From positions 1 through 58,632 of the IMG/VR virus record IMGVR_UViG_3300011118_002165: a stretch of DNA of 58,632 bases; one strand, given 5' to 3'. Below are positions 28,600 through 51,452 of the stretch, piece after piece. Under the pieces are notes generated by a model that saw nothing but the letters and a program-made list of their open reading frames with translations, searched no databases and was not told the origin of the DNA. The DNA comes from a virus. Lineage: Duplodnaviria; Caudoviricetes. Each line of letters begins with the position of its first letter. Within the stretch, counting starts at the first letter, position 1. The position numbers and the translations under genes are program-made.

Positions 28600-28643
28600 T
28601 TCCTGCACCCTCTACATCTGCAGTCAGGCCGATTCTGTCGCGC
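28600..28643 (-). promoter_or_regulatory. 44-bp conserved phage promoter-like motif, copy A (head/tail operon)
   Basis: GCGCGACAGAATCGG-N6-TGCAGATGTAGAGGGTGCNGGAA; same motif at 45242-45285 and 51409-51452. Confidence 0.8.
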
Positions 28644-28658
28644 TGATTCCCCGGATTC

Positions 28659-30926
28659 TCACCCCCGGTGCGTCCGTTGGATTTCAGATAGCTTGATGCG
28701 CCGCCGCGGCGCCGAGGTCTTGGCATCGGTGCCTGGCAGGACGGCCCCGTGGATGGAGGCCGCCACGGCGCAGCCGACCAGGCAGTCCAGCCAGTGGTTG
28801 TCCGGATGCCCGGCCCGGAGCTTCCATTCATCCACCACGCGGCCCCGCGCCTCGGTCCGCACCCGGTACTCGGCGGTGACGTGCTCGGCCAGGAGCTGAT
28901 GTGCGGCGGGCTTGCGGCCGAACAGCGACAAACAGCCCGGGTCACCCATGGCGACCGCCAGGCGCGCGTGACAAAAACTCTTCCAGTAGTTCGTGTCGAT
29001 CAGGACGTGGCGCACCTGCCGGCGGCCATGGACGTTGGGGATGCGCCAGTGGTGGCCGATGCGCTCGCCGCGCTTGCGCTTGTACTCGCTGAACGGCACG
29101 CTGGACGCTCCGACGTAGCGCCCGTGGCTGGGCATCACGATGGCCGAGTGGGCGCTCTGGCGGCAGAACTGGTAGACGACGTCCGTGCTCTGGCCCCAGT
29201 TGGCGTCGATGAGACAGCGCTCGATCTGCAGCTCCGCCCCGTCGTCGCGCCGCCAGCGGCGGGACAGGTAGTCCCCGGTGAGGTCCTCCAGCCCGGCGTA
29301 GACTGAGCCCTCCAGGCCCGCCCCGGGCGCGGCCTGGCCGAGCGTTTTCTGCACGTCGCGTAGCGTGAACAGCGCCCGCCGCTGCTCGGGATACGCGCCA
29401 TACTCGAGCACGTAGCCGGTGAAGTCGTCCTCCCACGCTACGACGGTGTGGAACAACAGCTTGCCCTGCACGTCGATGAACATCGTCAGGTGGCTGGCCG
29501 CCAGGGGCACCTCGCCCGGGGCGTGGCCGTTGACCTTCGCGGCGACTTGCTCGGCCGTGAGTTGGTCCACGTCGCCCTCGTCCTCCGGCAGCGGCTCATT
29601 CTGATACTCCGCCCAGAAGGCCCGTTCATCCTGAAGCTTGAGGTTCATCGCGTGCTGAATGGCCGAGAGCTCGTCCTCGTTGTGGCGCTGCGGCCAGGCC
29701 ACGACAGAGCCGGCGTCCATCTGGTCGCGATGCTCGCGGTAGAACTCGGTGGCCTCGTGGCCGTCGCCGTCGCTGCGGAAGCTGTCAGCGCGGATCTGAG
29801 CGTACCGCTCCCACAGCTTCTCGTTGGCCGGGAAGGCGTAGACGAGTTTGGTGCGCTGGCCCTGCCAAGTGGGGTGCTTGTCGCGGTCGAGGATCTGGTC
29901 AGCCATGTCCCCCGGACGGATCACCGTGCACGGCATGATCCCCGAAATCTTCTGGCCCGGCCCGGCGAGGTTCAGGATCGCGCCGTTGAGCGTGTCCATC
30001 CGGGCGCCCGTCTGCGGATCGCTCCGGGCCGACTCGTCCGTCTGCGGATCGTCCAGCACCACCAGGGACGGGCGCACGGCACGGCCGTCGGCTCGCTTGA
30101 ACTTCATACCGCGGATCCGGCTCTCGATACCCGCCACGCGGATGATGGCGCCTGACGCCTTCGAATCGGGGATCGTCGGCAGGACGATCTCGTCGGCCGT
30201 CCAGACGATCCGCGTGTGCTGGCCGCCACATAGCTGGCCCTTCGCCCGGTTGTGGATGCGTTCCAGGGCGTGGATCGGGTACACCGCCTCGGGATAGTCC
30301 TCCAGCAGGGCGTCATTGGTCTCGAACTCGACCTTGATGCTCTCCAGCATGCTGCGGGCGTGCCCGGCGTCCGAACCGATCAGGCAGACGAACTCCCGCG
30401 CGCCGGTCAGCATCGCCCAGATGCACGCCGTCTCGGCCAGCGTCGTTTTGCCGCTGCCGCGCGGCATCGCCATGGCGAACAGCCCGCCGCGAAGCACCGC
30501 CTGCTCGATCTTGCCGATCACCTTCAGGTGGTCGTCCGACCATGGCAGGTTGAACGCCTGCGGGAAGTACGCCTCGCAGAAGAACCGGAAGTCGGTCTCG
30601 GCGTGGGCCTTCCGCTCGGGATCGACCACCTGCGGGATCGGGCCGATGTCCCGGCCGGTGGCGGAGATCTCCGCATTGCGCGCCCGCGCTGCCTCCTTGA
30701 TCGCCTCGTAGTCGGCCGGCGCCTTTGCCGGCGCGGGGTCGTGGCGCAGCCACGCCAGCCAGGCGACGTAGCGGAACAGGTCCACGTGCCGGTCATCCCC
30801 GATCCGGTAGCCAGCGCGGTTGCGGTGCCGGCGGAGTTGGCGCTCGCTGATCACCTCGCCCAGCGGCGTGGAGTTCAGCATCCGCGTCAACATCGATGGG
30901 CGAAGGTTGCGCGGGTCAATCGCCAC
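28659..30926 (-). CDS. Terminase large subunit (GpA-like) with extra N-terminal wHTH-like domain
   Basis: MPRGSGKTT Walker A, VVLDDPQ Walker B, FIDVQ and DNHWLDC nuclease motifs. Confidence 0.92.
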   Translation of the reverse strand: MAIDPRNLRPSMLTRMLNSTPLGEVISERQLRRHRNRAGYRIGDDRHVDLFRYVAWLAWLRHDPAPAKAPADYEAIKEAARARNAEISATGRDIGPIPQVVDPERKAHAETDFRFFCEAYFPQAFNLPWSDDHLKVIGKIEQAVLRGGLFAMAMPRGSGKTTLAETACIWAMLTGAREFVCLIGSDAGHARSMLESIKVEFETNDALLEDYPEAVYPIHALERIHNRAKGQLCGGQHTRIVWTADEIVLPTIPDSKASGAIIRVAGIESRIRGMKFKRADGRAVRPSLVVLDDPQTDESARSDPQTGARMDTLNGAILNLAGPGQKISGIMPCTVIRPGDMADQILDRDKHPTWQGQRTKLVYAFPANEKLWERYAQIRADSFRSDGDGHEATEFYREHRDQMDAGSVVAWPQRHNEDELSAIQHAMNLKLQDERAFWAEYQNEPLPEDEGDVDQLTAEQVAAKVNGHAPGEVPLAASHLTMFIDVQGKLLFHTVVAWEDDFTGYVLEYGAYPEQRRALFTLRDVQKTLGQAAPGAGLEGSVYAGLEDLTGDYLSRRWRRDDGAELQIERCLIDANWGQSTDVVYQFCRQSAHSAIVMPSHGRYVGASSVPFSEYKRKRGERIGHHWRIPNVHGRRQVRHVLIDTNYWKSFCHARLAVAMGDPGCLSLFGRKPAAHQLLAEHVTAEYRVRTEARGRVVDEWKLRAGHPDNHWLDCLVGCAVAASIHGAVLPGTDAKTSAPRRRIKLSEIQRTHRG

Positions 30927-31116
30927 TGGCCACCTCCCGCACGAGCCACGCCGCGTAGTGCACCAGGTTCAGCGTGCCGTCGGCGTTGACGGGTGCCCCG
31001 GCGTCGACGTCCGCGCGGAGCATCTCCTCGGTGATCCGCCGCCCGCCGGCGGCGCTCAGAACCTTCGCCGCCTGGGGGGGCGTCAGGGCCGTGATTCTGG
31101 GGGTTTCGGCGGTCAT
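30916..31116 (-). CDS. Small terminase-like (Nu1 DNA-binding domain-like) protein
   Basis: 66 aa overlapping the large terminase start; GAPVNADGTLNLVHYAAWL. Confidence 0.6.
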   Translation of the reverse strand: MTAETPRITALTPPQAAKVLSAAGGRRITEEMLRADVDAGAPVNADGTLNLVHYAAWLVREVASGD

Positions 31117-31181
31117 ATCTCTAGCCCCCTTGCCAGCTTGCGATAAGCTGTAACTTCTTTTTAAACAGGCGTTTAATTGCC

Positions 31182-31209
31182 TTGATGTGTCCGGGGTTCG
31201 AGGTAACAT
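31182..31209 (+). promoter_or_regulatory. Possible sigma70 promoter of the opposite-strand small-gene cluster
   Basis: TTGATG-16 nt-TAACAT after an AT-rich tract (31150-31180). Confidence 0.4.
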
Positions 31210-31258
31210 GTGTCTGTCGAATGACAAACGTAAACGACTGCCAGAGAAGGAGATAACG

Positions 31259-31450: not shown

Positions 31451-31477
31451 CCACCACCCACCGCAAAGGAGCCAACC

Positions 31478-33858: not shown

Positions 33859-34095
33859 TCAAGCCGACACCCCTTCCTGCGCCCCGGCCGACGACGCCGG
33901 GGCGCTCTCAGCCACCAGGTTCCCTCGCGGGATCACCACCACACGCCCGTCGATCTCCACGCCGACGTTGCGCGGGCCGGGGCCAGCGGCGGCGACCCGC
34001 ACGACGCCGCGCTTGCCGTGGTGCGGCATGACGGCCGCCGCCCGTTTGGCGTAATGCACGCGGACCCGCTGTCCGATTCGCGGGTGGAAGATCAC
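33859..34095 (-). CDS. Hypothetical SH3-like small protein
   Basis: PRIGQRVRVHY...GKRGVV...NVGVEIDG..VVIPRGNL; GTGA overlap with upstream gene. Confidence 0.55.
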   Translation of the reverse strand: MIFHPRIGQRVRVHYAKRAAAVMPHHGKRGVVRVAAAGPGPRNVGVEIDGRVVVIPRGNLVAESAPASSAGAQEGVSA

Positions 34096-34514
34096 TTCGG
34101 CCTCCAGAGACCGTGGGGGAAGAAGTCGGCCAGGATCCGCTGCTGCTCGGAGTAGCCGTAGCTCTCGATCGACCGGGCGAAGTGGTCGCGGCAGAGCAGG
34201 TACCGGGCGCGCATGATGCGGACAGACTCCGGGCCGAAGAGGTCGAACGTCGGCCCGGCGGGTGTCTGCCGCCGCGCCTCGTAGCGCCGGTCGTCGCGCT
34301 TCACCAGCGTGGTGACCCGCAACTGCTCCAGCCTCGGCCAGTCGCCGTCGACCGGGTGCTCGATCACCGGGCTGTACGCCACGGCGAGATCGACGAAGTC
34401 CAGCACGTCCGCCAGCGGCACGCCGCCGATGACCTCCCTGCGGAGCTCGGCGTCCACGAAGCGCTCCAGCACCTGGACGACGTCCGCCGGCCCGTCCTTT
34501 GCTGGGCGGCTCAC
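34092..34514 (-). CDS. Hypothetical protein
   Basis: GTG start overlapping the MTase stop, GGAGG RBS. Confidence 0.55.
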   Translation of the reverse strand: MSRPAKDGPADVVQVLERFVDAELRREVIGGVPLADVLDFVDLAVAYSPVIEHPVDGDWPRLEQLRVTTLVKRDDRRYEARRQTPAGPTFDLFGPESVRIMRARYLLCRDHFARSIESYGYSEQQRILADFFPHGLWRPK

Positions 34515-35863
34515 GCTGCAGCCTCCTCGGTCGCCGCGCCGATGCGCTCGGCCTTTTTGCCGGTGAACTGCTCCCACCGCTGGACGATTACGTCGCAGTA
34601 GAGCGCGTCGATCTCCATCAGGTACGCCCGCCGGCCCGTCTGCTCGCAGCCGATCAGCGTCGAGCCGCTGCCGCCGAAGAGGTCCAGAACGTTCTCGCCC
34701 GGCAGCGAGCTGAACTGGATCGACCGAACGGCCAACTCGACGGGTTTCTCGGTCAGGTGGACCATCGCCTGGGGGTTGACCTTCTTGACGTGCCAAAGGT
34801 CGGTGGCGTTGTTAGGCCCGTAATAGCAATGACCTGCGCCTTCCTTCCACCCGTAGAAGCAGATCTCGAACGCCCCCATGAAGTCCTTGCGTGTGAGCAC
34901 CGGGTGCTGCTTGTCCCACACGATCCCCTGGCTGAAGTACAGCCCCGAAGCCTTGAGCGGCGCGGGGTAGTTGCCGAGGTTCGCATACCCGCCCCAGATG
35001 TAGAACGAGCCCCCCGGCTTGAGCACGCGCGAGGCGTTGCCAAACCATGCCAGCAACATCTCGTCGAACGCCTCGTCGGTGACGAAATCGTTCTCCAGCG
35101 GCCGGTCCTTGGCTCGCATCTTCTTGCGGGCCTTCTTCGGGTCGGTCACGCCGCGCGCTACGTCGAAGCCCTGGTGGTGCATTTTGCCAGAAGACTGCGA
35201 CAGGTCCGGGTGGGAGCTGTTGCCCGCTGCGATGGCCGTGCTGCTGCGCGGCTCGACGCGGACATTGTACGGCGGGTCCATCGAGACCAGGTCGATGGTC
35301 GCGCCGTCCAGCAGAAGGTCCAAGTCGGCCTGGCTGGCGCTGTCTCCGCACATCAGGCGGTGGTTGCCCAGCACCCAGACGTCCCCGCGCTGGGTGATCG
35401 CCTCGTCGGGCGGCTCGGGCACCGCGTCAGGGTCGGTCAGGCCCTCAGCCGTCTCGCCGTCGAGCAGCTTGGCCAGTTCCGTGTCGTCGAAGCCCAGCAG
35501 GCTCAGGTCGTAGTCGGCGCCCTGGAGGTCCTTCAGCTCGATCGGCAACAGGTCGAAGTCCCACTCGGCCAGCGACGCGGTCTGGTTATCCGCGATCCTG
35601 TATGCCTTGATCTGTTCGGGCGACAGGTCCGTGGCCACGTGGACGGGCACCTTGGCCAGGCCCAGCTTCCGCGCTGCCTTCCACCGTGTGTGGCCGACGA
35701 TGATCACACTGTCGGCGTCGACCACGATGGGCTGGCGAAAGCCGAATTCCTTCAGGCTGGCAGCAACCGCATCTACGGCCTGATCGTTGACGCGCGGGTT
35801 GGCCTCGTACGGCCGGATGGCGTCGATGGGTCGCAGCTCAACGTCGTAGGTCTTCGTCGTCAT
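34511..35863 (-). CDS. ParB-like N-terminal domain fused to N4/N6 DNA methyltransferase
   Basis: PYEANPR..SLKEFGFRQPIVVD..GHTR..YRIADN; DPPY, H.TEKPVEL, DLFGGSGST. Confidence 0.93.
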   Translation of the reverse strand: MTTKTYDVELRPIDAIRPYEANPRVNDQAVDAVAASLKEFGFRQPIVVDADSVIIVGHTRWKAARKLGLAKVPVHVATDLSPEQIKAYRIADNQTASLAEWDFDLLPIELKDLQGADYDLSLLGFDDTELAKLLDGETAEGLTDPDAVPEPPDEAITQRGDVWVLGNHRLMCGDSASQADLDLLLDGATIDLVSMDPPYNVRVEPRSSTAIAAGNSSHPDLSQSSGKMHHQGFDVARGVTDPKKARKKMRAKDRPLENDFVTDEAFDEMLLAWFGNASRVLKPGGSFYIWGGYANLGNYPAPLKASGLYFSQGIVWDKQHPVLTRKDFMGAFEICFYGWKEGAGHCYYGPNNATDLWHVKKVNPQAMVHLTEKPVELAVRSIQFSSLPGENVLDLFGGSGSTLIGCEQTGRRAYLMEIDALYCDVIVQRWEQFTGKKAERIGAATEEAAA

Positions 35864-35984
35864 GGGTGCACCTCCGTGCGCTTGGGGTCACGTGGAAAAA
35901 CCGGACAGCACGCAACAAACTCTGCCTATGGGCGCGACTGTTCCCGCTGGCGTCAGGAGTAGCCCGGGCGGGGTAGGACCCATC

Positions 35985-36254
35985 GAATCCTTCACGCGAA
36001 TCCCTCACGGGCCCCTCATACGCGTGCACACGCGCCTCGCGCGGGGGTGGGCGTGAACGCGTGAAGGATTCATATAGAAGAGAGAGTGTGTGTTGTTATT
36101 ACTATACTTATAGCCCGCCGAATCCTTCCCGAATCCTTCACAACGGCCCGTGAAGGATTGTGAAGGATTCGCCGTCCAACGCCGAGTATTCAGGGAATCG
36201 CCGTCGAATCCTTCACGCCCGCGTGAAGGATTGGGAAGGATCTGTGAATGATTC
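35985..36254. repeat. Iteron-like array, ~11 copies of GAATCCTTCAC in both orientations around an AT-rich core (putative origin)
   Basis: Forward copies at 35985, 35998, 36120, 36131, 36206; reverse at 36061, 36150, 36160, 36223, 36233, 36244; AT-rich 36072-36112; directly after the primase-helicase stop. Confidence 0.8.
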
Positions 36255-36267
36255 CGGAGGGCGGTGG

Positions 36268-38655
36268 TCATGCCAGCTGGTACCCGTGTGCCGTCTTGGT
36301 CTTGGTCGGGATGTCTACCGGGAGGATCTCACCTTGCTGAATCAGGGTGGCCACCAGTTGGTCGAAGTCTGCGGCCTTGCACCGCATCACACGCAGCAGG
36401 TGCTGGCGCTGCATGCGACGCCCGGGCGCTTCGGAGAGCCTGCGGGTGAGCTTCAGGCACTCGGCGTGGAACGGGTTCTCCGCCACGTACGTCGCTGCCA
36501 AGTAGAGCTGGCGCCGGGTCTGGTGCATGGCGAAGGCGGTTGCCCACTCGATGGCGGGCAGGCCGATGACCGGATCCTCGTGGTTCTCGCTGCAGGCGTA
36601 GAGCAGGGCGAGCTTCTTCGCGTTCTCGCACGTACGCGCCCAGGCGACCTTTCCGGTCGCGTCGCCGCGGTCCTCTGACCTGGCGTACTCGTCTTCCGTC
36701 ATGCGCTGGAGAGCGTCCACGGCCTCCTGGGCCTCGGGCGTCGTGGGGACCACGCGTGGCTCGGGATGGATTGCGAACAGGTCCTTGCGGACCGAGCCGG
36801 GCTGGAACTCGGCCCACCAACGGGCCGTTTGGAGGATCGCCTCGGGCACGTTGCGGGCGGAGCCGGGCCTCTGGCCACGGCCGCGCTTGCCGATGTCGAC
36901 GATGATCAGCCTGGCGAAGAAGCCGTTGGTGAGCATGCGGTAGGACAGCGCCTCGTAGAAGTACTGGGGCGTGGCGGTCCCGAACAGGGCCAGGTGCGGC
37001 TGGTCGATGTGCCCCATCTCCTTCTGCCCGGCCTTGACGCGGATGGGGTAGACGTCGCTGGCCGACGTGCTCATCGTCAGCAGGATGCTGTGGATCGACT
37101 CGGTCTTGCCCTCGCGGTCCAGGTTGATCTGGCGCAGGACGCCGTCCATCTCGTCGTTCTGGAACAGCATGGCCGGCGAACGCGCCAGCGCGTCCTGGAT
37201 GCCCTGCCCACTGGCAAACTTGTCGCCGAGGGCGTGGACGAGCCCGATCTCGAACAGGATCCGGGCGTTGACCTTGCGCGGGAAGTCCTTGCCCGTGCCG
37301 GAGCCGGCCAGGGCGAGGATCATGATGTTGGTGCGCAGGTCGTCGCCGTTGCACACCTTCCGCCCGGTCAGCAGCGACATCAGGGCCATCGCGCCGCAGA
37401 ACGCCAGGCCACCGTTCGGGTACGGGGCCTTGGCCAGCGAGAAGTCCATGACCTGCGAGACGAAGCCGGGTACCTCGAAGAGGCGCTCGGGGATCGGACC
37501 CGGGTCGGCCATGTGCAACGCGGCGCCGCCCGTGTCGGTGGTGTCCGGCAGGCAGGCGTCCGCCTTCGCCACGATGGCTGAGGTGTCGACGTCGCTGTCG
37601 TCCGGCTCGTCACTGCCGTAGCCCTCCGCCCGTAGCGCGCGGGCGGCCTGCTCGAAGTCGCCGCCATGTTCCAGCAGCGCGTAAACGGCGAACGGTGAGT
37701 ACGCCTGGTTGGGTTCGAACGGGGCGGCATTCGACGAGAAGACGTAGAACACGCCGTCCTTCAGCGTGGCCGACGTGCCCGTCTGCTTGCCCGGCCGGCG
37801 CCAGTACTCGTTCTCGCCGCCCTTGACGCACACCCAGCCGTGCTGTTGGAGCACGGCCCGCACGTCGCCACGGGCGTTGAAGTCGTCGCCAGGGCGAAGA
37901 TCGCCGCCGCTTGGCGCACCGGCCGCCGGACCGCCCCCGGTCGCCCCAGGGGCCAACGTGTGGCCACGTGGGGCGGCCCGGGCCCTGCAGTCCGCCGCGG
38001 GGGGCACGTATTCGTTCAAGTCCCACGCACACCGGAGCAGGATGTCGCGCTCCTCGGCGGTCAGGACAGGCAACTTGCGGAAGTCGCCTTGGACGAGCGC
38101 GTAGCCCTCGGTTGGGTCGCACAGGAACAACCCGCCTTCACCCCGCGTCTCGATCAGCGTAATGATCACGGACCTCGAGCCGTCGTCGTCGGTGCGGACG
38201 AGGTACTCCTTGCCGTGGAGCACGACGACTTCCTTGCCCTTCTTGTTGAGCGTGATCTCCTCGTCCCGGACGGCGCGCTTGCGCTGGGCGAGCTTCAGGC
38301 TGCCGCAGACCTCCTCCTCTACGCGACAGGCCGTGTGCCATCCGTCGGACTGGCTCCCCTCGATGACGAGCTTCTCCAGCAGCCCCGGCGCAGCCGTCCG
38401 GACGCGCTTGCACCACGGGTCGAACAGCTCCCCCGCGAAGTCGAAGTCCGTCATCTCCAGGTTGCCGGAGACCTCGCCGCAGACCAGGCACACTCCGTCG
38501 TGGTCATTGGCGAACCATGCATCCACCTCGGCTGCGGTGGGCAGCCGCGTCTTGTACGGCTCCCACTTGCCTTTGATAGCCGGCCGCTTCTCGGCCCGAT
38601 GAGCCGGCAGGACGCACAAGCCGGCGTCGAGATATGCACGGGCGGCCTGCTTCAC
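36268..38655 (-). CDS. Primase-polymerase (Prim-Pol) fused to DUF3987/YfjI-like helicase
   Basis: AYLDAGLCVLP..EKRP, CGEVSGNLEMTDFD, IETRGEGG; WRRPGK; AGSGTGKD, NDEMD, LTNGFFAR. Confidence 0.88.
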   Translation of the reverse strand: MKQAARAYLDAGLCVLPAHRAEKRPAIKGKWEPYKTRLPTAAEVDAWFANDHDGVCLVCGEVSGNLEMTDFDFAGELFDPWCKRVRTAAPGLLEKLVIEGSQSDGWHTACRVEEEVCGSLKLAQRKRAVRDEEITLNKKGKEVVVLHGKEYLVRTDDDGSRSVIITLIETRGEGGLFLCDPTEGYALVQGDFRKLPVLTAEERDILLRCAWDLNEYVPPAADCRARAAPRGHTLAPGATGGGPAAGAPSGGDLRPGDDFNARGDVRAVLQQHGWVCVKGGENEYWRRPGKQTGTSATLKDGVFYVFSSNAAPFEPNQAYSPFAVYALLEHGGDFEQAARALRAEGYGSDEPDDSDVDTSAIVAKADACLPDTTDTGGAALHMADPGPIPERLFEVPGFVSQVMDFSLAKAPYPNGGLAFCGAMALMSLLTGRKVCNGDDLRTNIMILALAGSGTGKDFPRKVNARILFEIGLVHALGDKFASGQGIQDALARSPAMLFQNDEMDGVLRQINLDREGKTESIHSILLTMSTSASDVYPIRVKAGQKEMGHIDQPHLALFGTATPQYFYEALSYRMLTNGFFARLIIVDIGKRGRGQRPGSARNVPEAILQTARWWAEFQPGSVRKDLFAIHPEPRVVPTTPEAQEAVDALQRMTEDEYARSEDRGDATGKVAWARTCENAKKLALLYACSENHEDPVIGLPAIEWATAFAMHQTRRQLYLAATYVAENPFHAECLKLTRRLSEAPGRRMQRQHLLRVMRCKAADFDQLVATLIQQGEILPVDIPTKTKTAHGYQLA

Positions 38656-39077: not shown

Positions 39078-39087
39078 GGCTTCTCCC

Positions 39088-42244: not shown

Positions 42245-42246
42245 CG

Positions 42247-42645: not shown

Positions 42646-42929
42646 GCCGCCTCTCGTTCGAAGGGGATCTCGGCACCGACGTCGCCGGCCTCCTGCTCGC
42701 GGCGCCACCCCAGGAACTTCTCGAGTTCGCATGTCGCTTCCACGCGGCTGGCGAACTCCTTCCGGCAACTGGCGTCCTTGGTCCAGATCAGCCCGTCGAA
42801 CGGCTCAATGCTCATCCAGAGGCCGAATTCGGGATCGTGGATGCAGTAGAAAGTGCGGGTGACGACGTCGTCGCATGCTTCGGTGAATTTCACGACTCGT
42901 TCGTTGGAGTTTGTCTCCTTGGTCTTCAT
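42642..42929 (-). CDS. Hypothetical protein
   Basis: AGGAGG RBS; ATGA overlap with rusA. Confidence 0.6.
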   Translation of the reverse strand: MKTKETNSNERVVKFTEACDDVVTRTFYCIHDPEFGLWMSIEPFDGLIWTKDASCRKEFASRVEATCELEKFLGWRREQEAGDVGAEIPFEREAA

Positions 42930-42942
42930 GGTCGCGAGCCTC

Positions 42943-43401
42943 CTATCGCTTCCAGGGCGGGGTGCTGTTCGTGGCGGGCGCCTGCTGCGGCTGGCCGGCG
43001 GCGGAGGCCTTCGACTCGTAGCCCTTGATCTCGTTGGTCAACTCGCCGGTGTCCTGGCGCTTCTTGAGCTTCACGACGATGACCAGCGGGATGTTGTGCA
43101 GCTCGACGCTGTCTTTCGGCTGCATCACCCCGATGGCCCGGCAGATGGCCGACAGCTCGCCGCGGGCGATCTTGACCGCCGTGGCATTGGGGTTGTTGAG
43201 GTTCAGACGGGCCCAGAGCACGCGGTTCTTGCAGTCGCCCTCGACGATCGTGAAGGTGAACTGGAGATAGCTGCCGCTGCCGCTCTTGGTCGGCTTCATC
43301 TCCGACTCGGTGATCGCCGCGAGGTACTTGCCCGCCGGGATCGGGTCGAAGCTCGTGGTGGGCTCGACTTCGTTCGCATTGAATCCGTTCAGGTTTGCCA
43401 T
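42943..43401 (-). CDS. DUF669 family protein (phage SSB-like)
   Basis: FDPIPAGKY.A.ITESEMKPTKSG.G.YL, NEIKGY, PPW tail. Confidence 0.85.
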   Translation of the reverse strand: MANLNGFNANEVEPTTSFDPIPAGKYLAAITESEMKPTKSGSGSYLQFTFTIVEGDCKNRVLWARLNLNNPNATAVKIARGELSAICRAIGVMQPKDSVELHNIPLVIVVKLKKRQDTGELTNEIKGYESKASAAGQPQQAPATNSTPPWKR

Positions 43402-43405
43402 GGGG

Positions 43406-44200
43406 TCAGTTCTCCTTGCTGTCGGGGTTGGTCCCGGGGTTCGGGGCGCCGATCAGGGCCTGCATCAGGTCGGCCCATGCCAGGGGCAGCTCGGCCGGCA
43501 GGTCGAAGCGGTTCTTCGCCACGCAGGCCGGACTGCCAACGCACCGCAGAATGCGCTCGCCGCCGTCGGTGCCCAGCCCGGCGGCGGTGGTCCGCTTGCG
43601 GTTGAAGCCGGCCTCCTCGGTCGTGGTGATGATCTTGCGGGTCGCGAACAGCACGGCGTCGACCCACTCGGTGATCAGGGCCGTCGCGTGCTTGTGAAGG
43701 CGGGGCGAGTAGCGGTCGTAGGCCGAGTGCTCGGGGTCCTCGAACTTCTCGACCTTGGCGTGTGCCAGCAGGATCACGCACATGCCCCGCTGGGTCCGGA
43801 GGGCGTTGAGGTCGTTGAGGATCGACCGCCAGGGCGTCAGGGCGTGGGTGTAGCCCTTGGCGTAGCCGCCGTCGACCTTCTCGATGCTGGTTACCCCGTA
43901 CTGCTCGCACAGGGAATCCCAGATCAGGCGTTCGAGCCAGTCGACCGAGTCGAGAACGACGGTCTCGAAGTCATGGGGCTCCTGGAGCAGGGCCTGAATC
44001 GCCCCCTGGACGTCAGCCAGCGTGCGGGCCAGCGGGAAGGAGTGGCAGTCGATCTGGTCCAGGCCATCCTCGGTTGGGATGAAGACGGGCCTGGGCGCCT
44101 GGGCCGCCGTGGTGGATTTGCCGATGCCCTCGGTTCCGTAGATCAGCAGTCTCGGTGGTGAGTGGCGTCGGCCGCTGTGGACTTGCTTCATCAAGCTCAT
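43406..44200 (-). CDS. AAA_24 ATPase (Sak4-like recombinase)
   Basis: IYGTEGIGKST, TVVLDSVDWLE, LLAH, EWVDAVLF, AKNRF. Confidence 0.85.
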   Translation of the reverse strand: MSLMKQVHSGRRHSPPRLLIYGTEGIGKSTTAAQAPRPVFIPTEDGLDQIDCHSFPLARTLADVQGAIQALLQEPHDFETVVLDSVDWLERLIWDSLCEQYGVTSIEKVDGGYAKGYTHALTPWRSILNDLNALRTQRGMCVILLAHAKVEKFEDPEHSAYDRYSPRLHKHATALITEWVDAVLFATRKIITTTEEAGFNRKRTTAAGLGTDGGERILRCVGSPACVAKNRFDLPAELPLAWADLMQALIGAPNPGTNPDSKEN

Positions 44201-44258
44201 GGGCAGTTCCTCTTGCTCGTGGGTCTCGTGTTCTGTCACACCATGGCTGGCCAGCCAC

Positions 44259-44329
44259 TGGCAGGTGCGGGAGTCGAACCCGCGTTCCGAGGCCCTTCCT
44301 GCGAAGAGCCCCGGCAGCCCGGCCCTGCC
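44259..44329 (-). ncRNA. tRNA-like element 2 (acceptor stem and T-arm, no D-arm, long central helix)
   Basis: GGCAGG/CCTGCC-A acceptor, GCGGG-TTCGACT-CCCGC T-arm, CCGGGGCTCTTC-GCAG-GAAGGGCCTCGG helix; 71 nt. Confidence 0.6.
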
Positions 44330-44335
44330 GGATGT

Positions 44336-44402
44336 GCCCCGGGCGGGGGCCGGAATCGAACCGGCTGACAGGCCGCAGCCAACAACCAGTCCCGCCCGGG
44401 GC
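44336..44402 (-). ncRNA. tRNA-like element 1 (extended acceptor stem and T-arm)
   Basis: GCCCCGGGCGGG/CCCGCCCGGGGC 12-bp stem enclosing GCCGG-TTCGATT-CCGGC; 67 nt. Confidence 0.55.
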
Positions 44403-44412
44403 GATTGGGACG

Positions 44413-45234
44413 CTATGCCGCGTCCAGCATGCGAATCTCCTCGTAGCCCGTGGGCCAGCGGTCCAACTCGCCGCAGCGGACGAGCCGCCGGATCGCGGCC
44501 TCGTTCTCCTGGCGGGCGATGGCGAGGGTGTTCTCGGTGACGCGCCAGACGCCGCAGCGGAAGGGCTCGGCCTTCTCGACGGCGATGAGATGCACGGGGA
44601 CGTGCTCGTCGACGGCCTCAGCGAACACCGACTGATAGAAGGCGACCTGGTTGTGATAGCGGCGCCGCCGGGCGTCGGCCTCGAACCAAGTCAGGTCCGC
44701 AGTGGTCTTCAGGTCGACGATGCCCCGGAAGGGATGGACCCAGTCGATGCGAATCTGGCACGGCGTGCCGCAGTACCGTGCCCGGACAACGCCTTCGGAT
44801 CGGCCGTACAGGAGCAGCTCGACGACCTCATCGTTCATGGCCACACCGCCGGCCATCTGCTCGATGAGCTCGACTTGGTCCTCCGACAAGACCGGCTTGC
44901 CCTGAGCGGCCGCCCACTCGGCGAACGCCTTCGTGTTGGCCCCGAAGGGCCGGCCCGTCCGGGGGTTGATGGGGCCGCCGAGGGTAAACTGGCTCTCGTA
45001 GGCTTCCCGCCCCTCCAGGATGCGGCAATGCGCGCCGCGGCCGACGAGCAGCGCCGGCGTCTCAACGTCCTTGATCAGGCCCAGCCACTTCTTGTGGTAC
45101 AGCCACGGGCAGGCCATGAAGTCCAGCAGCTGGTGGCTGCTGAGGTACTCGCCGGCGAGGGCGTGGTACTCCTCGGCCGGCTCGGCTTCGAGGACACTCA
45201 GGTCGATGTGGAGGGCGTCGTCCATGGTTCGCAT
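44413..45234 (-). CDS. PD-(D/E)XK exonuclease (DUF3799/RecE-like)
   Basis: EEYH..LSSHQL, G.GAH..ILEG, SEGV, QIRIDW, IVDLKTT, YHNQVAFYQ, IAVEK.EP. Confidence 0.88.
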   Translation of the reverse strand: MRTMDDALHIDLSVLEAEPAEEYHALAGEYLSSHQLLDFMACPWLYHKKWLGLIKDVETPALLVGRGAHCRILEGREAYESQFTLGGPINPRTGRPFGANTKAFAEWAAAQGKPVLSEDQVELIEQMAGGVAMNDEVVELLLYGRSEGVVRARYCGTPCQIRIDWVHPFRGIVDLKTTADLTWFEADARRRRYHNQVAFYQSVFAEAVDEHVPVHLIAVEKAEPFRCGVWRVTENTLAIARQENEAAIRRLVRCGELDRWPTGYEEIRMLDAA

Positions 45235-45241
45235 CGCTCCT

Positions 45242-45285
45242 TTCCGGCACCCTCTACATCTGCACCTGAGCCGATTCTGTCGCGC
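45242..45285 (-). promoter_or_regulatory. 44-bp conserved phage promoter-like motif, copy B (recombination/replication operon)
   Basis: Same motif as 28600-28643; overlaps the sigma gene stop; ends 8 nt before ATG 45234. Confidence 0.8.
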
Positions 45286-45910
45286 TGTTCCCTGGGATTC
45301 GCAGGCCTGCGGCGGCCAGGTACGGGCGGATCTCGGCGATATTGCGGTAGATGGACCCGCGACAGACGCCCAGTTTTTCAGCCACCTCGGGGGGGGCAAA
45401 CACCATAAGCAAGCGACACACCCGACGCAGCCGCTTGGGCATTCCGGCCAGCGCCGCCTCCAGGTCCAGCCGGAGCTCGCGCTGGGCCTGCTCGTCCAGC
45501 TCGCCGGCGCGCGTCTCGTTCACGACGGGCTGGAAGCCCAAGGCGACGTCGTCCAAGCCGAGGGGGCTGTCGCACGGACGGCGCTGTTGCGTGCACCGGA
45601 TGCGCGTGGCGTACTTGACGAACTTGTCCAGCACGCGGTTGACGAAGGTCTCGCGTTTCGCCTTGGCGGGATCGAACCGCTGGAAGGCCGTAAGCAGCTC
45701 GACCACCATGTCATGACGGCAGTCTTCCTGCTCGGCCTCCGACAGGTCGAACTGGCTGGTCAGCACGCGGATGCGGAAACTGATCCGCTCCAGAGCGTAC
45801 TCGTCGATCAACTGCTCCGCCGTGAGCTGGCTGACCTGCTGCTGGGAGTGGGAGGGGGAGGTTTCGCGGTCCGGGGAGACCGCCCGCCGGTCGAAGGACG
45901 TGCTCTTCAC
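45254..45910 (-). CDS. Phage sigma70/ECF-like sigma factor (sigma-1)
   Basis: EQEDCRHDM..L..FQRFDPAKAKRETFVNRVL (region 2); DLEAALAGMP..LRRVC..PEVAEKLGVCRGSIYRNIAEIR (region 4). Confidence 0.85.
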   Translation of the reverse strand: MKSTSFDRRAVSPDRETSPSHSQQQVSQLTAEQLIDEYALERISFRIRVLTSQFDLSEAEQEDCRHDMVVELLTAFQRFDPAKAKRETFVNRVLDKFVKYATRIRCTQQRRPCDSPLGLDDVALGFQPVVNETRAGELDEQAQRELRLDLEAALAGMPKRLRRVCRLLMVFAPPEVAEKLGVCRGSIYRNIAEIRPYLAAAGLRIPGNSATESAQVQM

Positions 45911-45941: not shown

Positions 45942-45987
45942 AAAAAGGCCCGCTGAAGAACACCGGCGGGAGCGCTTCAGCGGGCCT
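45942..45987 (-). terminator. Intrinsic terminator/attenuator in the sigma-1 leader
   Basis: 13-bp arms AGGCCCGCTGAAG/CTTCAGCGGGCCT (45946-45958, 45975-45987), 16-nt loop, T-run on the minus strand. Confidence 0.6.
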
Positions 45988-46034
45988 CGGTCTGTGACGT
46001 TGCCTCGCCGGCTTTCGCTCTTCGCCGGCGGGGC

Positions 46035-46071
46035 GTCACATTTGGCGTGACCAAGTCACGTTTGGCGTGAC
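46035..46071. promoter_or_regulatory. Tandem operator, 2 x GTCAC(A/G)TTTGGCGTGAC
   Basis: 17-bp GTCAC-N7-GTGAC palindromes at 46035-46051 and 46055-46071 (20-bp period). Confidence 0.7.
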
Positions 46072-48542: not shown

Positions 48543-48891
48543 GCACTAGCCGGGAGCGCCGGCAACCGAGATTCGCCTGATCGACAGGCCCCGTCCGTGG
48601 TCCTGTCCCGAGACTAATTGCAAATAGCATGCCATCGACATTCTGTCGCGGATAACGAACGCATGAACAAGGGTTTGTGCCATGTCCGCCGCCGCCCAGC
48701 CACCTGCCACGAACAGCTCCCAAGGGACGTTCGCCTGCCTCGATGGCCGGCTCTGCCGCCTTCTCAGCCATCTCGCTCAGTCGCAGGGCACGTCCACCTG
48801 GCGCAACGGCTCCGTCGCGCCTCCAGTCGACGCCATCGGCGGGAGCCAGCCTGTCCCTACGACAACGACGTTCTTTTCGTGGGCGGGCTTC

Positions 48892-49359: not shown

Positions 49360-49397
49360 GTGCTTACGGCCCGAGGCGGACGCAAGGGTAAGCCAGG

Positions 49398-50030: not shown

Positions 50031-50038
50031 GTGCAACC

Positions 50039-50410
50039 ATGGCTGAATATACGGACAGAGAAGTCAACGAACTCCTCTTCAGGGCCATCGTACCCAGGGG
50101 GCTCAGGCCTGAGACGCCAGAGGAGATCGACGCCATGCTGGACGCCATCGGGGGCGAAGCACTGCCTGAGGCCACGGTTCAGCGCATGTTGCGCAAGATC
50201 CGCGGCGAAGAACCATTGGCCGATCCCCAGGCCGGGCACGACGTGAGGAGGATGGACGATACGGCGGCGGGCCTCCCTGCTGCGGAACTCGCCCTTTATC
50301 GCAACCGAAACGAAGAAATGCCTCCGGAGATCGAGAAGCTGTTGGAGGAGATGGAAGAGGAAGCGCTTGAGGACGGGGAAGAAGACGGCGTGGACGACGA
50401 AGATGCGTAA
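50039..50410 (+). CDS. Small acidic protein, candidate anti-sigma/protease substrate
   Basis: 123 aa, soluble, helical N-terminus, very acidic tail; sits between ECF sigma and IrrE peptidase and overlaps the latter. Confidence 0.6.
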   Translation: MAEYTDREVNELLFRAIVPRGLRPETPEEIDAMLDAIGGEALPEATVQRMLRKIRGEEPLADPQAGHDVRRMDDTAAGLPAAELALYRNRNEEMPPEIEKLLEEMEEEALEDGEEDGVDDEDA

Positions 50411-51320
50411 GCCCACCTGGAAGGAGCTGCAGGGCCACCGCGACTGGGCAAACGACCAGGGCGAGGGAATCGCTGCGGTCCTCGGTTGCTCGAACCACCC
50501 CATTGATCCCTTCGCCATCGCGGCGGCGGAACCTGTCATCTTCCTGAAGGGCGCCGATCTCGGTGATGAGTTCGATGGCAGGCTGAGTTACTGCCCGCGC
50601 CGGAAGGCGACTCAGCGGGACCGCTTCCTCCTGGCCTACAACACGCGGTATGACCACATCTGCCAGTACGACGGCGAACACTGCCCCAAGGTGCGGTTCA
50701 CGATCGCGCATGAGCTCGGGCATTACTTCATGGATCGCCATCGTCATCACCTGCAGGAAGGCGGCCAAGCGTATACATGCTACACCGAGTCCTACTGCGA
50801 GATGGTGATGGAGCTTGAGGCGGATTCATTTGCTGCCGGCCTTCTCATGCCGTCGTCTCTGCTGGCGCCGGTCATCAATCGCCAGGTCGCGGAGGAACCC
50901 AGCCTCGATGACATTCGCTACGTGGCACGCGACTTCCAGATCTCGCTCACGAGCATGATGGTCAGGTGGACGAAGCTCTCTGATTTTCCCTGCGCAGTCT
51001 TCTCCGTTGCTGAGAACGAGGGGAAGCTCGGGATCCGTTGGGGGTGGGTATCGGAAGCGTTCGCGAACGTCGGGGCGTACTGGCGGCTGTACGGGCAATT
51101 CCGATCGCGGGATGCCCGTGGCTTCCTCGGCCAGGCCCCCGACTTCTCTCAGTGGCAGTGCGGCTCCGGTCTCGGCACGATGGCCGACTGGGTCGAAACC
51201 GACCATCGGATCAGCGTCAAGGAGCACTACGCTGTCATCCCGTACGCCCGGCATCTGCTTGTGTTCCTCACCGCCGCCGAAGATGAACTGAGCGACTGCC
51301 GCCCACTACGTCAGTACTGA
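50403..51320 (+). CDS. ImmA/IrrE (M78) metallopeptidase with C-terminal extension (CapP/IrrE-like)
   Basis: PIDPFAIA, FDGRL, RFTIAHELGHY, ELEADSFAAGLLMP, ARDFQISLTS..R. Confidence 0.9.
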   Translation: MRKPTWKELQGHRDWANDQGEGIAAVLGCSNHPIDPFAIAAAEPVIFLKGADLGDEFDGRLSYCPRRKATQRDRFLLAYNTRYDHICQYDGEHCPKVRFTIAHELGHYFMDRHRHHLQEGGQAYTCYTESYCEMVMELEADSFAAGLLMPSSLLAPVINRQVAEEPSLDDIRYVARDFQISLTSMMVRWTKLSDFPCAVFSVAENEGKLGIRWGWVSEAFANVGAYWRLYGQFRSRDARGFLGQAPDFSQWQCGSGLGTMADWVETDHRISVKEHYAVIPYARHLLVFLTAAEDELSDCRPLRQY

Positions 51321-51408
51321 CGCCAACAGCCATGGGGGGATCGAGGGCACGTCAGCAGGCTACCACGTCGATCTCCCCAGCGCGCTGCGCCTGCGATCCG
51401 CACGTTTG

Positions 51409-51452
51409 GCGCGACAGAATCGGGACAGCTGCAGATGTAGAGGGTGCCGGAA
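51409..51452 (+). promoter_or_regulatory. 44-bp conserved phage promoter-like motif, copy C (xis-int)
   Basis: GCGCGACAGAATCGG-gacagc-TGCAGATGTAGAGGGTGCCGGAA upstream of the excisionase. Confidence 0.8.

What the first reader, a model, noticed from the sequence alone, without database searches (positions are those of the whole stretch)
28600..51452. One 44-bp motif heads the three lytic operons: a phage-sigma regulon
Seen: GCGCGACAGAATCGG-N6-TGCAGATGTAGAGGGTGCNGGAA, 37 of 44 positions invariant, at 28600-28643 (-, head/tail genes), 45242-45285 (-, recombination/replication genes, overlapping the sigma-1 stop codon) and 51409-51452 (+, xis-int). It is always oriented with the downstream gene. 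A partial copy (CGCGACAGAAT, -) lies near 48640-48650. The two conserved blocks with a variable spacer fit an alternative-sigma -35/-10 promoter. Inference: one phage sigma, most simply sigma-1, switches on excision, replication and morphogenesis together instead of N/Q antitermination.
Basis: partly seen in the sequence, partly recalled or inferred. Interest (0 to 1): 0.85.

Follow-up and report, generated by a model that had tools for sequence, protein, structure and literature searches.

The report
Phage sigma factor's promoter motif
A prophage of a planctomycete-type bacterium carries three near-identical copies of a two-part DNA signal that most likely is the promoter read by the phage's own sigma factor, switching on its excision, replication and head-tail genes together.

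Summary
Three copies of the 44-bp motif sit at the stated coordinates (0 of 100 shuffles give any), and the next-best site in the window scores 4.8 bits against 50-57.

'Sigma-1' (45254-45910, -) is a real but divergent two-domain ECF-like sigma.

All 36 loci fetched by sigma-1 homology, down to 32% identity, carry the motif at the sigma gene's 3' end. There it is non-coding or read in either of two frames, so the DNA is what is conserved.

Further copies recur between terL and the portal genes, before xis-int, or before a serine-recombinase operon. In four whole genomes, hits occur only in prophage-like clusters.

Copies within one phage share lineage-specific variants, and the second sigma of the window is present in only 2 of 36 loci.

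Best reading (about 0.7): a -35 GCGACA / 17 nt / -10 GATGTA promoter of sigma-1.

- Copy A lies downstream of the terminase genes.
- The 11-nt partial copy is not conserved.

No transcript data exist. This is a new variant of a known kind (phage-encoded sigma regulons).

The parts
45242..45285 (-). Motif copy B ('S' site). Proposed -35 GCGACA at 45278-45283, 17-nt spacer, proposed -10 GATGTA at 45255-45260. It overlaps the TAG stop of sigma-1 (45254-45256). Inferred start site about 45246-45248.
   Evidence: The same position holds the motif in 36 of 36 sigma-1-homologue loci.
28600..28643 (-). Motif copy A ('T' site), in the 72-nt gap between the terL stop (28659) and the 65-codon ORF plus portal. 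Inferred start site about 28604-28606.
   Evidence: The same terL|small-ORF|portal junction carries the motif in L012, L047, L049, L054, L056, L061 and L063, in 8 further viral contigs and in 7 metagenome stretches.
51409..51452 (+). Motif copy C ('X' site), 57 nt upstream of the excisionase-like gene. Inferred start site about 51446-51448.
   Evidence: The same position before xis-int homologues holds the motif in L004, L005, L013, L014 and L030 and in L087 and L131.
45254..45910 (-). sigma-1 (P0001, 218 aa): a divergent two-domain ECF-like sigma factor, and the proposed reader of the motif.
   Evidence: No Pfam sigma hit for this protein itself. 20 of 27 family members hit Sigma70_r2 and 5 hit Sigma70_r4_2. 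PHROG 1740 'RNA polymerase sigma factor' 3.5e-9. All 11 PDB profile hits at E<=1 are sigma factors. AlphaFold model with two helical domains (pLDDT 72.7); every listed Foldseek hit is a sigma chain or sigma-containing RNAP complex, with ECF SigE first and ECF sigmas as 8 of the first 10.
33859..45225 (-). Recombination/replication operon downstream of copy B. It holds a DUF3799 PD-(D/E)XK nuclease, AAA_24, DUF669, DUF4406/DUF6378, a helicase, a Prim-Pol/DUF3987 protein and a ParB-methylase.
   Evidence: The gene starts are my reading.
12358..28586 (-). Head and tail genes downstream of copy A: the 65-codon ORF, a lambda-type portal, a protease-capsid fusion, then tail genes not individually annotated here.
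51509..53318 (+). Excisionase-like HTH_17 gene (51509-51745) and tyrosine integrase (51852-53318), downstream of copy C.
45942..46071 (-). Likely control region of sigma-1. It has two tandem GTCAC-N7-GTGAC palindromes (46055-46071, 46035-46051) and a 12-bp GC-rich hairpin with a T-run (45942-45986), just upstream of the sigma-1 start.
   Evidence: Sequence read. Nearly identical in L004 although the flanking proteins are 78% identical. Its function is inferred.
48640..48650 (-). 11-nt partial copy (first block only), upstream of the unknown gene 47349-48542. Probably chance or a relic.
   Evidence: Not conserved in L004.

Best explanation
The motif is the cognate promoter of the phage's own sigma factor, sigma-1.

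Sigma-1 is a divergent two-domain (sigma2 + sigma4) ECF-like protein. Bound to host core RNA polymerase, its sigma4 domain would read the first block (consensus GYGCGACA, hexamer GCGACA). Its sigma2 domain would read the second block (TGCAGATRTAGAGGG, with GATGTA placed exactly 17 nt after GCGACA). Transcription would start 7-9 nt further on, about 28604-28606, 45246-48 and 51446-48. This would give short leaders carrying the ribosome-binding sites.

Once sigma-1 is made, it would drive three units together:
- the recombination/replication operon that begins inside its own 3' end;
- the head-tail genes, from an internal promoter just after terL;
- xis-int on the other strand.

In the prophage state, sigma-1 synthesis is presumably blocked at the operator pair and hairpin just upstream of its gene.

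Shown here: the anatomy, the sigma identity, the conservation and co-occurrence, the confinement to prophages, and the concerted variation.

Inferred: that it is a promoter, which bases are -35 and -10, the start sites, that sigma-1 rather than another factor reads it, and how sigma-1 is controlled.
For: (1) Bipartite architecture. Among 77 distinct sites, information is concentrated in positions 5-12 and 26-40, with a low-information spacer between them (the sites were chosen by a matrix, so core invariance is partly by construction). The spacing between blocks is 14 nt in 108 of 119 distinct contexts holding block 2, 18 nt in 1, and no hexamer matched my pattern in 10 (partly circular, because loci were fetched with a fixed-spacing pattern).

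(2) Sigma-1 is a sigma factor.

(3) Co-occurrence. 36 of 36 loci fetched by sigma-1 homology (21 genome and 15 viral contigs, 30 distinct site sequences, identity down to 32%) carry the motif at the gene's 3' end. A 37th homologue found later, L083, also carries it.

(4) The constraint is on the DNA. Among the 30 distinct loci, the sigma stop codon is the TAG inside the core in 8. It lies 5-33 nt upstream of the core in 14, leaving the core non-coding. The ORF reads through the core in another frame (AADVEG...) in 8, one of which runs on for 855 nt.

(5) Conserved positions, always co-oriented with the next gene. These are the sigma 3' end followed by nuclease/AAA_24, terL followed by the small ORF and portal, ahead of xis-int, or ahead of DUF2924 plus a large serine recombinase. 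In 24 of 27 S sites followed by the nuclease, the blastx match starts 9-33 nt after the 44-mer.

(6) Non-circular sampling by DNA pattern alone. In viral contigs, 12 instances in 10 new contigs were 8 T, 3 S and 1 probable U. In metagenomes, 54 stretches were 10 S, 7 T, 2 X and 35 unplaced.

(7) Confinement to prophages. Four whole genomes of 7.4, 6.1, 3.1 and 2.8 Mb hold 8, 3, 4 and 3 hits. The hits lie in clusters on one strand. The reversed control pattern gave 0 hits.

(8) Concerted variation. Sites of one phage share lineage-specific variants (GCAACA, GAGACA, GGGACA, CGCAG, GATATA). The mean is 17.23 of 21 variable positions within a phage against 14.25 between phages, and 0 of 2000 label shuffles reach that.

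(9) Other candidate readers are dispensable. By tblastn at 1e-5, the second sigma is found in 2 of 36 loci, M78 in 3, P0004 in 19 and P0003 in 15. L005 has S and X sites but none of these four.

(10) The promoters of the phage sigma gp36 of phiEco32 have the consensus AATGTA centred at -11.5 (passages of PMC12276001). This resembles GATGTA here.

(11) No sigma70-type promoter-like site was found in 44000-52000 or 28000-34500.
Against: - There are no transcript data of any kind. No start site, no sigma dependence and no RNA polymerase binding is shown.
- The second block is conserved over about 15 nt, longer than the -10 element usually described for ECF sigmas (recalled). Something more than sigma2 contact may therefore constrain it.
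- The blocks do not match the commonest ECF consensus (AAC at -35, CGT at -10; recalled).
- Copies A and B lie inside co-directional gene arrays with no terminator in front of them. A promoter there is not strictly needed.
- Co-occurrence with sigma-1 is partly by construction, because the loci were chosen by sigma-1.
- One genome (G004) holds three motif copies with no sigma-1 homologue detected nearby. One is a T site, one lies beside a truncated relic ORF, and one is unplaced.
- Concerted variation could also arise by gene conversion between copies.
- 12 of the 54 metagenome hits look like chance matches.
Confidence: 0.7

Rival explanations
1. The motif is a promoter, but it is read by the host housekeeping sigma together with a phage activator, or by the window's second sigma (49398-50030, canonical ECF by Pfam), and not by sigma-1.
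For: GCGACA shares 4 of 6 bases with TTGACA. In the GATATA variants, TATAGA resembles TATAAT. The second sigma lies on the same strand upstream of copy C. The long conserved second block could hold an activator site.
Against: The second sigma is detectable in 2 of 36 motif-bearing loci. No conserved activator candidate is present in all loci: P0003 is in 15 of 36, P0004 in 19 of 36, and L005 has neither. The hits in four genomes lie only in prophage-like clusters, so this is not a general host promoter type. The simple sigma70 scan does not call it.
Confidence: 0.12
2. The motif is the binding site (operator) of a non-sigma phage DNA-binding protein, for example a master repressor that shuts the three lytic units in the lysogen.
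For: The site sits immediately upstream of each lytic unit. Block 2 is conserved more strongly and over a longer stretch than a typical -10 element. Variation is concerted with a phage-encoded factor.
Against: The motif is asymmetric, with no dyad or direct repeat. It has two blocks at a fixed promoter-like spacing. The only protein gene always beside it is the sigma. Separate palindromic operator-like repeats exist elsewhere (46035-46071 and 49285-49359).
Confidence: 0.1
3. The motif acts in RNA, for example as a processing, stability or antitermination signal inside polycistronic transcripts. This would explain why copies A and B lie within co-directional gene arrays.
For: Copies A and B have no terminator upstream and sit between genes of one strand. 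Orientation is always that of the transcript.
Against: RNAalifold on 77 aligned sites gives no consensus structure (open chain, 0.0 kcal/mol). The spacer varies freely without pairing partners. Copy C and the U sites lie at operon starts facing divergent genes. The two-block geometry fits DNA recognition.
Confidence: 0.05
4. The copies are recombination or packaging sites (att-, cos- or pac-like).
For: One copy is next to the terminase gene and one is next to the integrase genes.
Against: There are three to four copies per prophage, all internal, and none lies at the prophage ends. Positions are tied to gene starts, and the orientation follows transcription. The S site is unrelated to packaging or integration. 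The same motif precedes both tyrosine- and serine-recombinase modules. The terminase-side copy is downstream of terL, not upstream of terS.
Confidence: 0.03

Closest known systems
Phage phiEco32 gp36, a divergent phage sigma, and its middle/late promoters (passages of PMC12276001 read)
   Same: A phage-encoded distant sigma homologue redirects host core RNA polymerase to phage promoters. The N-terminal domain reads a -10-like element and the C-terminal domain reads the -35 region. The promoter core AATGTA, centred at -11.5, resembles GATGTA here.
   Different: phiEco32 is a lytic coliphage, and gp36 needs the co-factor gp79. The phage here is temperate. The element has a strong, fixed -35-type block, and the regulon includes excision/integration genes. 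One promoter lies inside the sigma gene's own 3' end. No sequence homology between gp36 and sigma-1 was tested here.
Bacterial ECF (group 4) sigma factors and their bipartite promoters, often autoregulated (recalled from general knowledge; structures of SigE/SigH/SigL complexes listed)
   Same: Two-domain sigma2 + sigma4 architecture and similar length. The promoter has two blocks at fixed spacing. In relatives a copy heads the operon that contains the sigma gene itself (U sites), which resembles ECF autoregulation.
   Different: The blocks are GCGACA and GATGTA, not the common AAC and CGT (recalled). No anti-sigma partner was identified. The sigma is phage-borne and drives a viral lytic programme. 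Pfam models miss this particular protein.
Late-gene activators of Gram-positive temperate phages, RinA/ArpU/LtrA-C (PMC3753634: passages read, abstract start; PMC3152322: abstract start only)
   Same: [quoted passage not shown] It switches on morphogenesis genes. One family shows similarity to sigma region 4.
   Different: Those proteins bind direct repeats upstream of terS and activate a single late promoter. A terminator follows the activator gene. Here there is a full two-domain sigma and a non-repeated bipartite motif. There are three to four targets, none upstream of terS, and no terminator between the sigma gene and its target.
Sigma cascades of lytic phages: SPO1 gp28 and gp33/34, T4 gp55 (recalled, no call)
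   Same: Phage-encoded sigma-like proteins give temporal control by changing the promoter specificity of host RNA polymerase.
   Different: Those phages are virulent and use several factors for successive classes. Here a single factor appears to serve replication, morphogenesis and excision in a prophage.
Lambda-type N/Q antitermination (recalled, no call)
   Same: It fills the same role in the life cycle: coupling induction to delayed-early and late gene expression.
   Different: The mechanism is terminator read-through from few promoters. Here independent promoters appear to sit at each unit. I did not search for N/Q-like genes, so their absence is not shown.

Membership tests
Sigma-70 family, ECF-like (for sigma-1, 45254-45910) | Region 2 (sigma2) domain | tested here: met
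   P0001 itself has no Pfam hit. However, 20 of 27 aligned family members hit PF04542 at E<=0.01, best 2.2e-7. The PDB profile aligns CnrH region 2. PHROG 1740 matches at 3.5e-9. The AF2 N-terminal helical domain has pLDDT 85-95.
Sigma-70 family, ECF-like (for sigma-1) | Region 4 (sigma4) helix-turn-helix domain | tested here: met
   5 of 27 members hit PF08281 and 2 of 27 hit PF07638. The best PDB profile hit is FliA region 4 at E 5e-4. The AF2 C-terminal helical domain has pLDDT 87-91. Every Foldseek hit listed is a sigma chain or a sigma-containing RNAP complex; TM-scores are low (0.24-0.28) because the two domains are placed differently.
Sigma-70 family, ECF-like (for sigma-1) | Binds core RNA polymerase and confers promoter specificity | not testable with these tools
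   The record holds no host rpoB/rpoC, so no complex prediction was attempted. This needs biochemistry.
Sigma-70 family, ECF-like (for sigma-1) | Cognate anti-sigma factor encoded nearby (common in ECF groups but not universal; recalled) | tested here: inconclusive
   The conserved upstream neighbours P0003 and P0004 have no Pfam or PHROG hit. The atlas gives only hypothetical-protein clusters for both. The P0003 model has no PDB fold match at E<=0.001.
Sigma-dependent bipartite promoter (for the motif) | Two conserved blocks separated by a variable spacer of fixed length, compatible with a -35/-10 arrangement | tested here: met
   Information profile of 77 sites. GCGACA, 17 nt, GATGTA. The spacing is invariant in 108 of 119 contexts (partly circular).
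Sigma-dependent bipartite promoter (for the motif) | Oriented toward, and a short distance upstream of, the transcribed genes | tested here: met
   This holds for all three window copies and for every placed site in relatives.
Sigma-dependent bipartite promoter (for the motif) | Transcription start just downstream, dependent on the sigma | not testable with these tools
   No RNA holder is listed for the stretch, and read laying was not used.
Canonical ECF promoter consensus (AAC in -35, CGT in -10; recalled) | AAC and CGT core elements | tested here: not met
   The consensus here is GCGACA and GATRTA. The motif therefore works like an ECF-type promoter but does not carry the common consensus.
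RinA/Ltr-type late activator system | Direct repeats distal to the activator gene, upstream of terS, preceded by a terminator (PMC3753634 passages) | tested here: not met
   The motif has no internal repeat. No copy lies upstream of terS/terL. No terminator separates sigma-1 from copy B, because they overlap.

The most novel reading that the evidence does not exclude
Sigma-1 is the single master switch of a whole family of Planctomycetota (mostly Phycisphaerae) temperate phages.

On this reading the lysis-lysogeny decision reduces to whether sigma-1 is made, gated by the operator pair and hairpin in front of its gene. One sigma then fires excision or integration, replication and morphogenesis from three to four private promoters.

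One of these promoters is built into the sigma gene's own 3' end. Sigma and promoter would therefore travel as one portable cassette, while the recombinase module is swapped between tyrosine and serine types.

Each lineage would have co-evolved its own sigma/promoter code (GCGACA, GCAACA, GGGACA, GAGACA; GATGTA or GATATA). That would insulate co-resident prophages from one another and provide a natural set of orthogonal sigma-promoter pairs.
Probability: 0.3. Interest if true: 0.75.

Novelty: new variant of a known kind. Interest (0 to 1): 0.6.

Why it matters
Phage-encoded sigma factors are textbook for virulent phages. I know of no described temperate phage in which one phage sigma appears to run excision, replication and virion genes from a shared promoter.

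None of the five literature searches in the held library turned up this system or any Planctomycetota phage regulon.

The family is widespread. It appears in 21 species genomes, 15 viral contigs and dozens of metagenome contigs. Its hosts have almost no genetic tools or characterised phages.

The motif gives three practical returns:
- a simple marker for finding and delimiting these prophages;
- predicted start sites that can be tested directly;
- if confirmed, a set of naturally co-varying sigma/promoter pairs.

The promoter embedded in the sigma gene's 3' end is conserved as non-coding DNA or in two different reading frames. That is a clean example of a DNA signal overriding protein-coding constraint.

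Tried and rejected
Steps that gave nothing or were set aside:

- RNA evidence. The look-up of sequencing runs listed no RNA holder. Three runs of one study were returned, with shares 0.06, 0.00 and 0.00, all kept as contigs. I did not use read laying, because contigs cannot show starts.
- Exact 32-nt window version of the motif in viral contigs: 0 stretches. A looser pattern was needed.
- attL/attR search between 11-13.5 kb and 53-54.5 kb. The only shared word was a 14-mer at 11033/53038. The prophage ends were therefore not defined beyond the GC shift. No tRNA gene was found.
- Sigma70-type promoter scan: 0 sites in 44000-52000 and 0 in 28000-34500.
- Weak fourth copy upstream of terS/terL: none. 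The next best matrix score was 4.8 bits.
- The partial copy at 48640 read as a real site: rejected as unsupported.
- RNA structure in the motif: none.
- P0003/P0004 as an RNA polymerase, anti-sigma factor or known regulator. There were no Pfam or PHROG hits, the atlas gave only hypothetical clusters, and the P0003 model had no PDB match at E<=0.001. The pdb_via_wide library was not tried.
- The L005 345-codon ORF as a P0003 relative: no.
- Complex prediction was not used, because the record holds no host RNA polymerase gene.
- Supplementary files of papers were not consulted. The supplementary figures of PMC3753634 and PMC9429907 may hold details on activator sites and on phage sigma clades that I did not see.
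- Sigma4/sigma2 residue covariation with the motif variants was considered but not attempted, because it is confounded with phylogeny.

Full report
THE OBSERVATION

The 44-nt pattern occurs exactly three times, with no mismatch, at 28600-28643 (-), 45242-45285 (-) and 51409-51452 (+). None of 100 dinucleotide-preserving shuffles gave a match. The copies differ only in the 6-nt spacer and at one further position.

A matrix built from relatives scores the three copies at 50.4-57.0 bits. The next best site in the window scores 4.8 bits, and the best of 20 shuffles was 12.9.

The 11-nt partial copy at 48640-48650 (-) exists. It lacks the second block at the right distance, and the closest relative does not have it. 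I treat it as chance or a relic.

THE SETTING

The window is a whole 58.6-kb virus record. A block of about 41 kb (roughly 12.3-53.5 kb) has 65-71% G+C, against about 61% in the flanks. Its genes, run from left to right as follows:
- Tail and head genes on the minus strand, including a protease-capsid fusion (24898-27048), a lambda-type portal (26876-28336) and a 65-codon ORF (28389-28586).
- Copy A.
- terL of the gpA type (28659-30926).
- A small plus-strand module (about 31.2-33.9 kb).
- A minus-strand replication/recombination operon (33859-45225), with ParB-methylase, Prim-Pol/DUF3987, helicase, DUF4406, DUF669, AAA_24 and a DUF3799 nuclease.
- Copy B, overlapping the stop of 'sigma-1' (45254-45910).
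- Two unknown genes, P0003 (46087-47352) and P0004 (47349-48542).
- A DUF2188 gene.
- On the plus strand, a canonical ECF sigma (49398-50030; Sigma70_r2 5.8e-12) and an M78 peptidase protein (50367-51320).
- Copy C.
- An HTH_17 excisionase-like gene (51509-51745) and a tyrosine integrase (51852-53318).

Each copy therefore faces the next gene on its strand. However, copy A lies after terL and not at the head of the morphogenesis cluster. No terminator-like site lies between terL and copy A.

IS SIGMA-1 A SIGMA FACTOR?

Pfam does not recognise this protein directly, but five other lines of evidence agree:
- Among 43 homologues, seven carry a precomputed Sigma70_r2 hit. Five are named by their sources as sigma-70 family, ECF-subfamily or sigma24 proteins, and two records name Phycisphaerae or Phycisphaeraceae as the organism.
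- Of 27 aligned members, 20 hit Sigma70_r2, 5 hit Sigma70_r4_2 and 2 hit Sigma70_ECF.
- A profile of the alignment hits only sigma factors in the PDB (11 of 11 at E<=1, best FliA at 5e-4).
- PHROG 1740 'RNA polymerase sigma factor' matches at 3.5e-9.
- The AlphaFold model has two confident helical domains joined by a disordered linker. Every Foldseek hit listed is a sigma chain or a sigma-containing RNA polymerase complex. ECF SigE is first, and ECF sigmas make up 8 of the first 10.

I conclude that it is a divergent two-domain, ECF-like sigma.

THE MOTIF IN RELATIVES

I fetched 36 loci by sigma-1 homology: 21 species genomes, mostly titled Phycisphaerae or Planctomycetota, and 15 viral contigs. 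Two of the genome titles name other phyla. All 36 carry the motif at the 3' end of the sigma gene, down to 32% protein identity.

The relation to the reading frame varies. Among 30 distinct loci:
- The stop codon is the TAG inside ATGTAG in 8.
- The gene stops 5-33 nt before the core in 14.
- The ORF runs through the core in a different frame in 8, giving the peptide AADVEG.

The same nucleotides are thus kept as non-coding DNA and in two coding frames. This rules out conservation through the protein.

OTHER COPIES

A matrix scan of the loci, plus a pattern scan of four whole genomes, shows recurring site classes:
- S: sigma 3' end, followed by the nuclease or AAA_24 gene.
- T: between terL and the small ORF plus portal. 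This class is seen in L012, L047, L049, L054, L056, L061 and L063.
- X: before xis-int on the opposite strand. This class is seen in the window and in L004, L005, L013, L014 and L030.
- U: 5-6 kb upstream of S on the same strand. In L064 (G006), where it was checked by Pfam, it heads an operon with DUF2924, a large serine recombinase, a P0004-like gene and the sigma itself. L065 (G004) shows the same layout by ORF inspection.

In the four genomes (7.4, 6.1, 3.1 and 2.8 Mb) the pattern gave 8, 3, 4 and 3 hits. The hits lie in clusters on one strand, and the reversed control pattern gave none.

SAMPLING WITHOUT REFERENCE TO THE SIGMA

A DNA-pattern scan of viral contigs gave 17 stretches. The 12 instances in 10 new contigs were 8 T, 3 S and 1 probable U.

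The same scan of metagenome contigs gave 54 stretches with 41 distinct site sequences. They were 10 S, 7 T, 2 X and 35 that my window-protein blast could not place. Of those 35, 23 keep at least 5 of 7 consensus positions that were not part of the pattern, as do 18 of the 19 placed sites. The other 12 keep 3 or fewer and are probably chance hits in a very large database.

Several unplaced but good sites lie beside homologues of other genes of this prophage, for example after a g32912 homologue or before a ParB-methylase. The regulon therefore has further members in relatives.

ANATOMY OF THE SIGNAL

Across 77 distinct sites, information sits in GYGCGACA (positions 5-12) and in TGCAGATRTAGAGGG (positions 26-40), with a weakly conserved spacer between them. 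The sites were selected with the matrix, so the invariance of the core is partly by construction.

GCGACA is followed after exactly 17 nt by GATGTA. The distance between the hexamer and GCAG is 14 nt in 108 of 119 distinct contexts and 18 nt in one. In 10 contexts my hexamer pattern did not match. This count is partly circular, because the loci were fetched with fixed spacing.

The motif has no dyad or internal repeat. RNAalifold finds no consensus structure in the 56-nt alignment.

The middle and late promoters of phiEco32, read by the phage sigma gp36, have the consensus AATGTA centred at -11.5 (passages of PMC12276001). By analogy I place the start sites 7-9 nt after GATGTA. This is inference only.

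WHICH FACTOR READS IT?

By tblastn at 1e-5, the window's canonical ECF sigma has homologues in only 2 of 36 loci. M78 is found in 3, P0004 in 19 and P0003 in 15. L005 has S and X sites and a sigma-1 homologue but none of those four genes; it is a fragment, so this is not proof.

Sites within one phage share lineage-specific variants. Examples are GCAACA in all G004 copies, GAGACA with GTAGTA in L016, a C before GCAG in G005, and GATATA in G006, G007 and L030. Within-phage pairs agree at 17.23 of 21 variable positions against 14.25 between phages, and 0 of 2000 label shuffles reach this.

Because the S, T, U and X positions are orthologous across phages, independent drift would not produce this pattern. 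It points to co-evolution with a phage-encoded reader, or to gene conversion.

A distant sigma paralogue (25% identity) sits in the same gene position in another G004 prophage. It lacks the motif (best 5.0 bits) and is followed by a different two-block sequence, GGACA, 18 nt, TATGTA. The terL-side site of that prophage is also divergent. This is one case and is only suggestive.

POINTS AGAINST

- There are no transcript data.
- The second block is longer than a usual -10 element.
- The common ECF consensus is not met.
- Copies A and B lie within co-directional arrays.
- G004 has three motif copies with no sigma-1 homologue nearby: one T site, one beside a truncated ORF that ends in the motif-encoded peptide, and one unplaced.

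CONTROL OF SIGMA-1 (INFERENCE)

Between P0003 and sigma-1 lie two tandem GTCAC-N7-GTGAC palindromes and a 12-bp hairpin with a T-run. This stretch is almost identical in L004, although the neighbouring proteins are 78% identical. It is a plausible point at which the prophage keeps sigma-1 off.

COMPARISON WITH KNOWN SYSTEMS AND NOVELTY

The system works like the phage sigma regulons of phiEco32, SPO1 and T4, and like autoregulated ECF sigmas. It plays the role that RinA/Ltr activators or lambda N/Q play in other temperate phages.

It differs from these in five ways:
- It is temperate.
- It uses one sigma for excision, replication and virion genes.
- It places one promoter inside the sigma gene's 3' end.
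- It has its morphogenesis promoter after terL.
- Its hosts are Planctomycetota.

Five literature searches of the held library found no description of it.

VERDICT

- It is a new variant of a known kind.
- Interest is 0.6.

Noticed in passing
window 45942-46071 (-): Two tandem GTCAC-N7-GTGAC palindromes (46055-46071, 46035-46051) and a 12-bp GC hairpin with a T-run (45942-45986) lie between P0003 and the sigma-1 start. The stretch is almost identical in L004 although the flanking proteins are 78% identical. It is a candidate operator/attenuator controlling sigma-1.
   Followed up: partly
window 49285-49303 and 49341-49359: A 19-nt inverted pair (ATACGAC..GTTACAG / CTGTAAC..GTCGTAT) lies in the divergent region between the DUF2188 gene and the second (canonical ECF) sigma. 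It is conserved in L004 and L041. It may be the operator set of the lysogeny module (ECF sigma + M78 peptidase).
   Followed up: partly
window 46087-48542 (-): P0004 and P0003 (397 and 421 aa) form a conserved pair directly upstream of sigma-1, in 19 and 15 of 36 loci. They have no Pfam or PHROG hit and only hypothetical atlas clusters. The P0003 model (pLDDT 79) has no PDB fold match at E<=0.001. Their function is unknown; an anti-sigma or co-factor role is possible.
   Followed up: partly
L064 (G006) and L065 (G004); L080: In relatives with a large serine recombinase in place of xis plus tyrosine integrase, a motif copy heads the operon DUF2924 - serine recombinase - ... - P0004-like - sigma. 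The recombinase module was swapped, but it stays under the motif, and the sigma would then be autoregulated.
   Followed up: partly
L084/L085 (G004, about 2.83-2.87 Mb): A prophage with the same gene order carries a sigma paralogue only 25% identical to sigma-1. It lacks the motif and has different two-block sequences that keep a TGTA core, both at the sigma 3' end and near the small ORF before the portal. About 800 bp are inserted between terL and that site.
   Followed up: partly
L016 9063-9106 and 9499-9542: There is a tandem duplication of the sigma 3' end with its motif: two identical S sites lie 436 bp apart.
   Followed up: no
L090, L091, L120, L137, L140; L117, L134: Good motif copies occur in contexts not seen in the window: after homologues of the plus-strand genes 32423-32701 and 32912-33502, and about 370 nt before a ParB-methylase homologue. 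The regulon therefore has further members in relatives.
   Followed up: no
window 30918-31115 (-): A roughly 65-codon ORF overlaps the terL start. It is preceded by an AT-rich divergent intergenic region with a CAGCTTATCGCAAGCTG palindrome (31134-31150). It may be a small terminase subunit. This rests on reading only, and the longer ORF 30916-31392 has no Pfam or PHROG hit.
   Followed up: no
G004 3007617 and 3039927 (L058, L060): These are orphan motif copies without a sigma gene. In L060 an 86-codon ORF ends with the motif-encoded peptide (..DADIEG..) after a P0003-like gene, which looks like a decayed sigma cassette. L058 and L060 share downstream sequence.
   Followed up: partly
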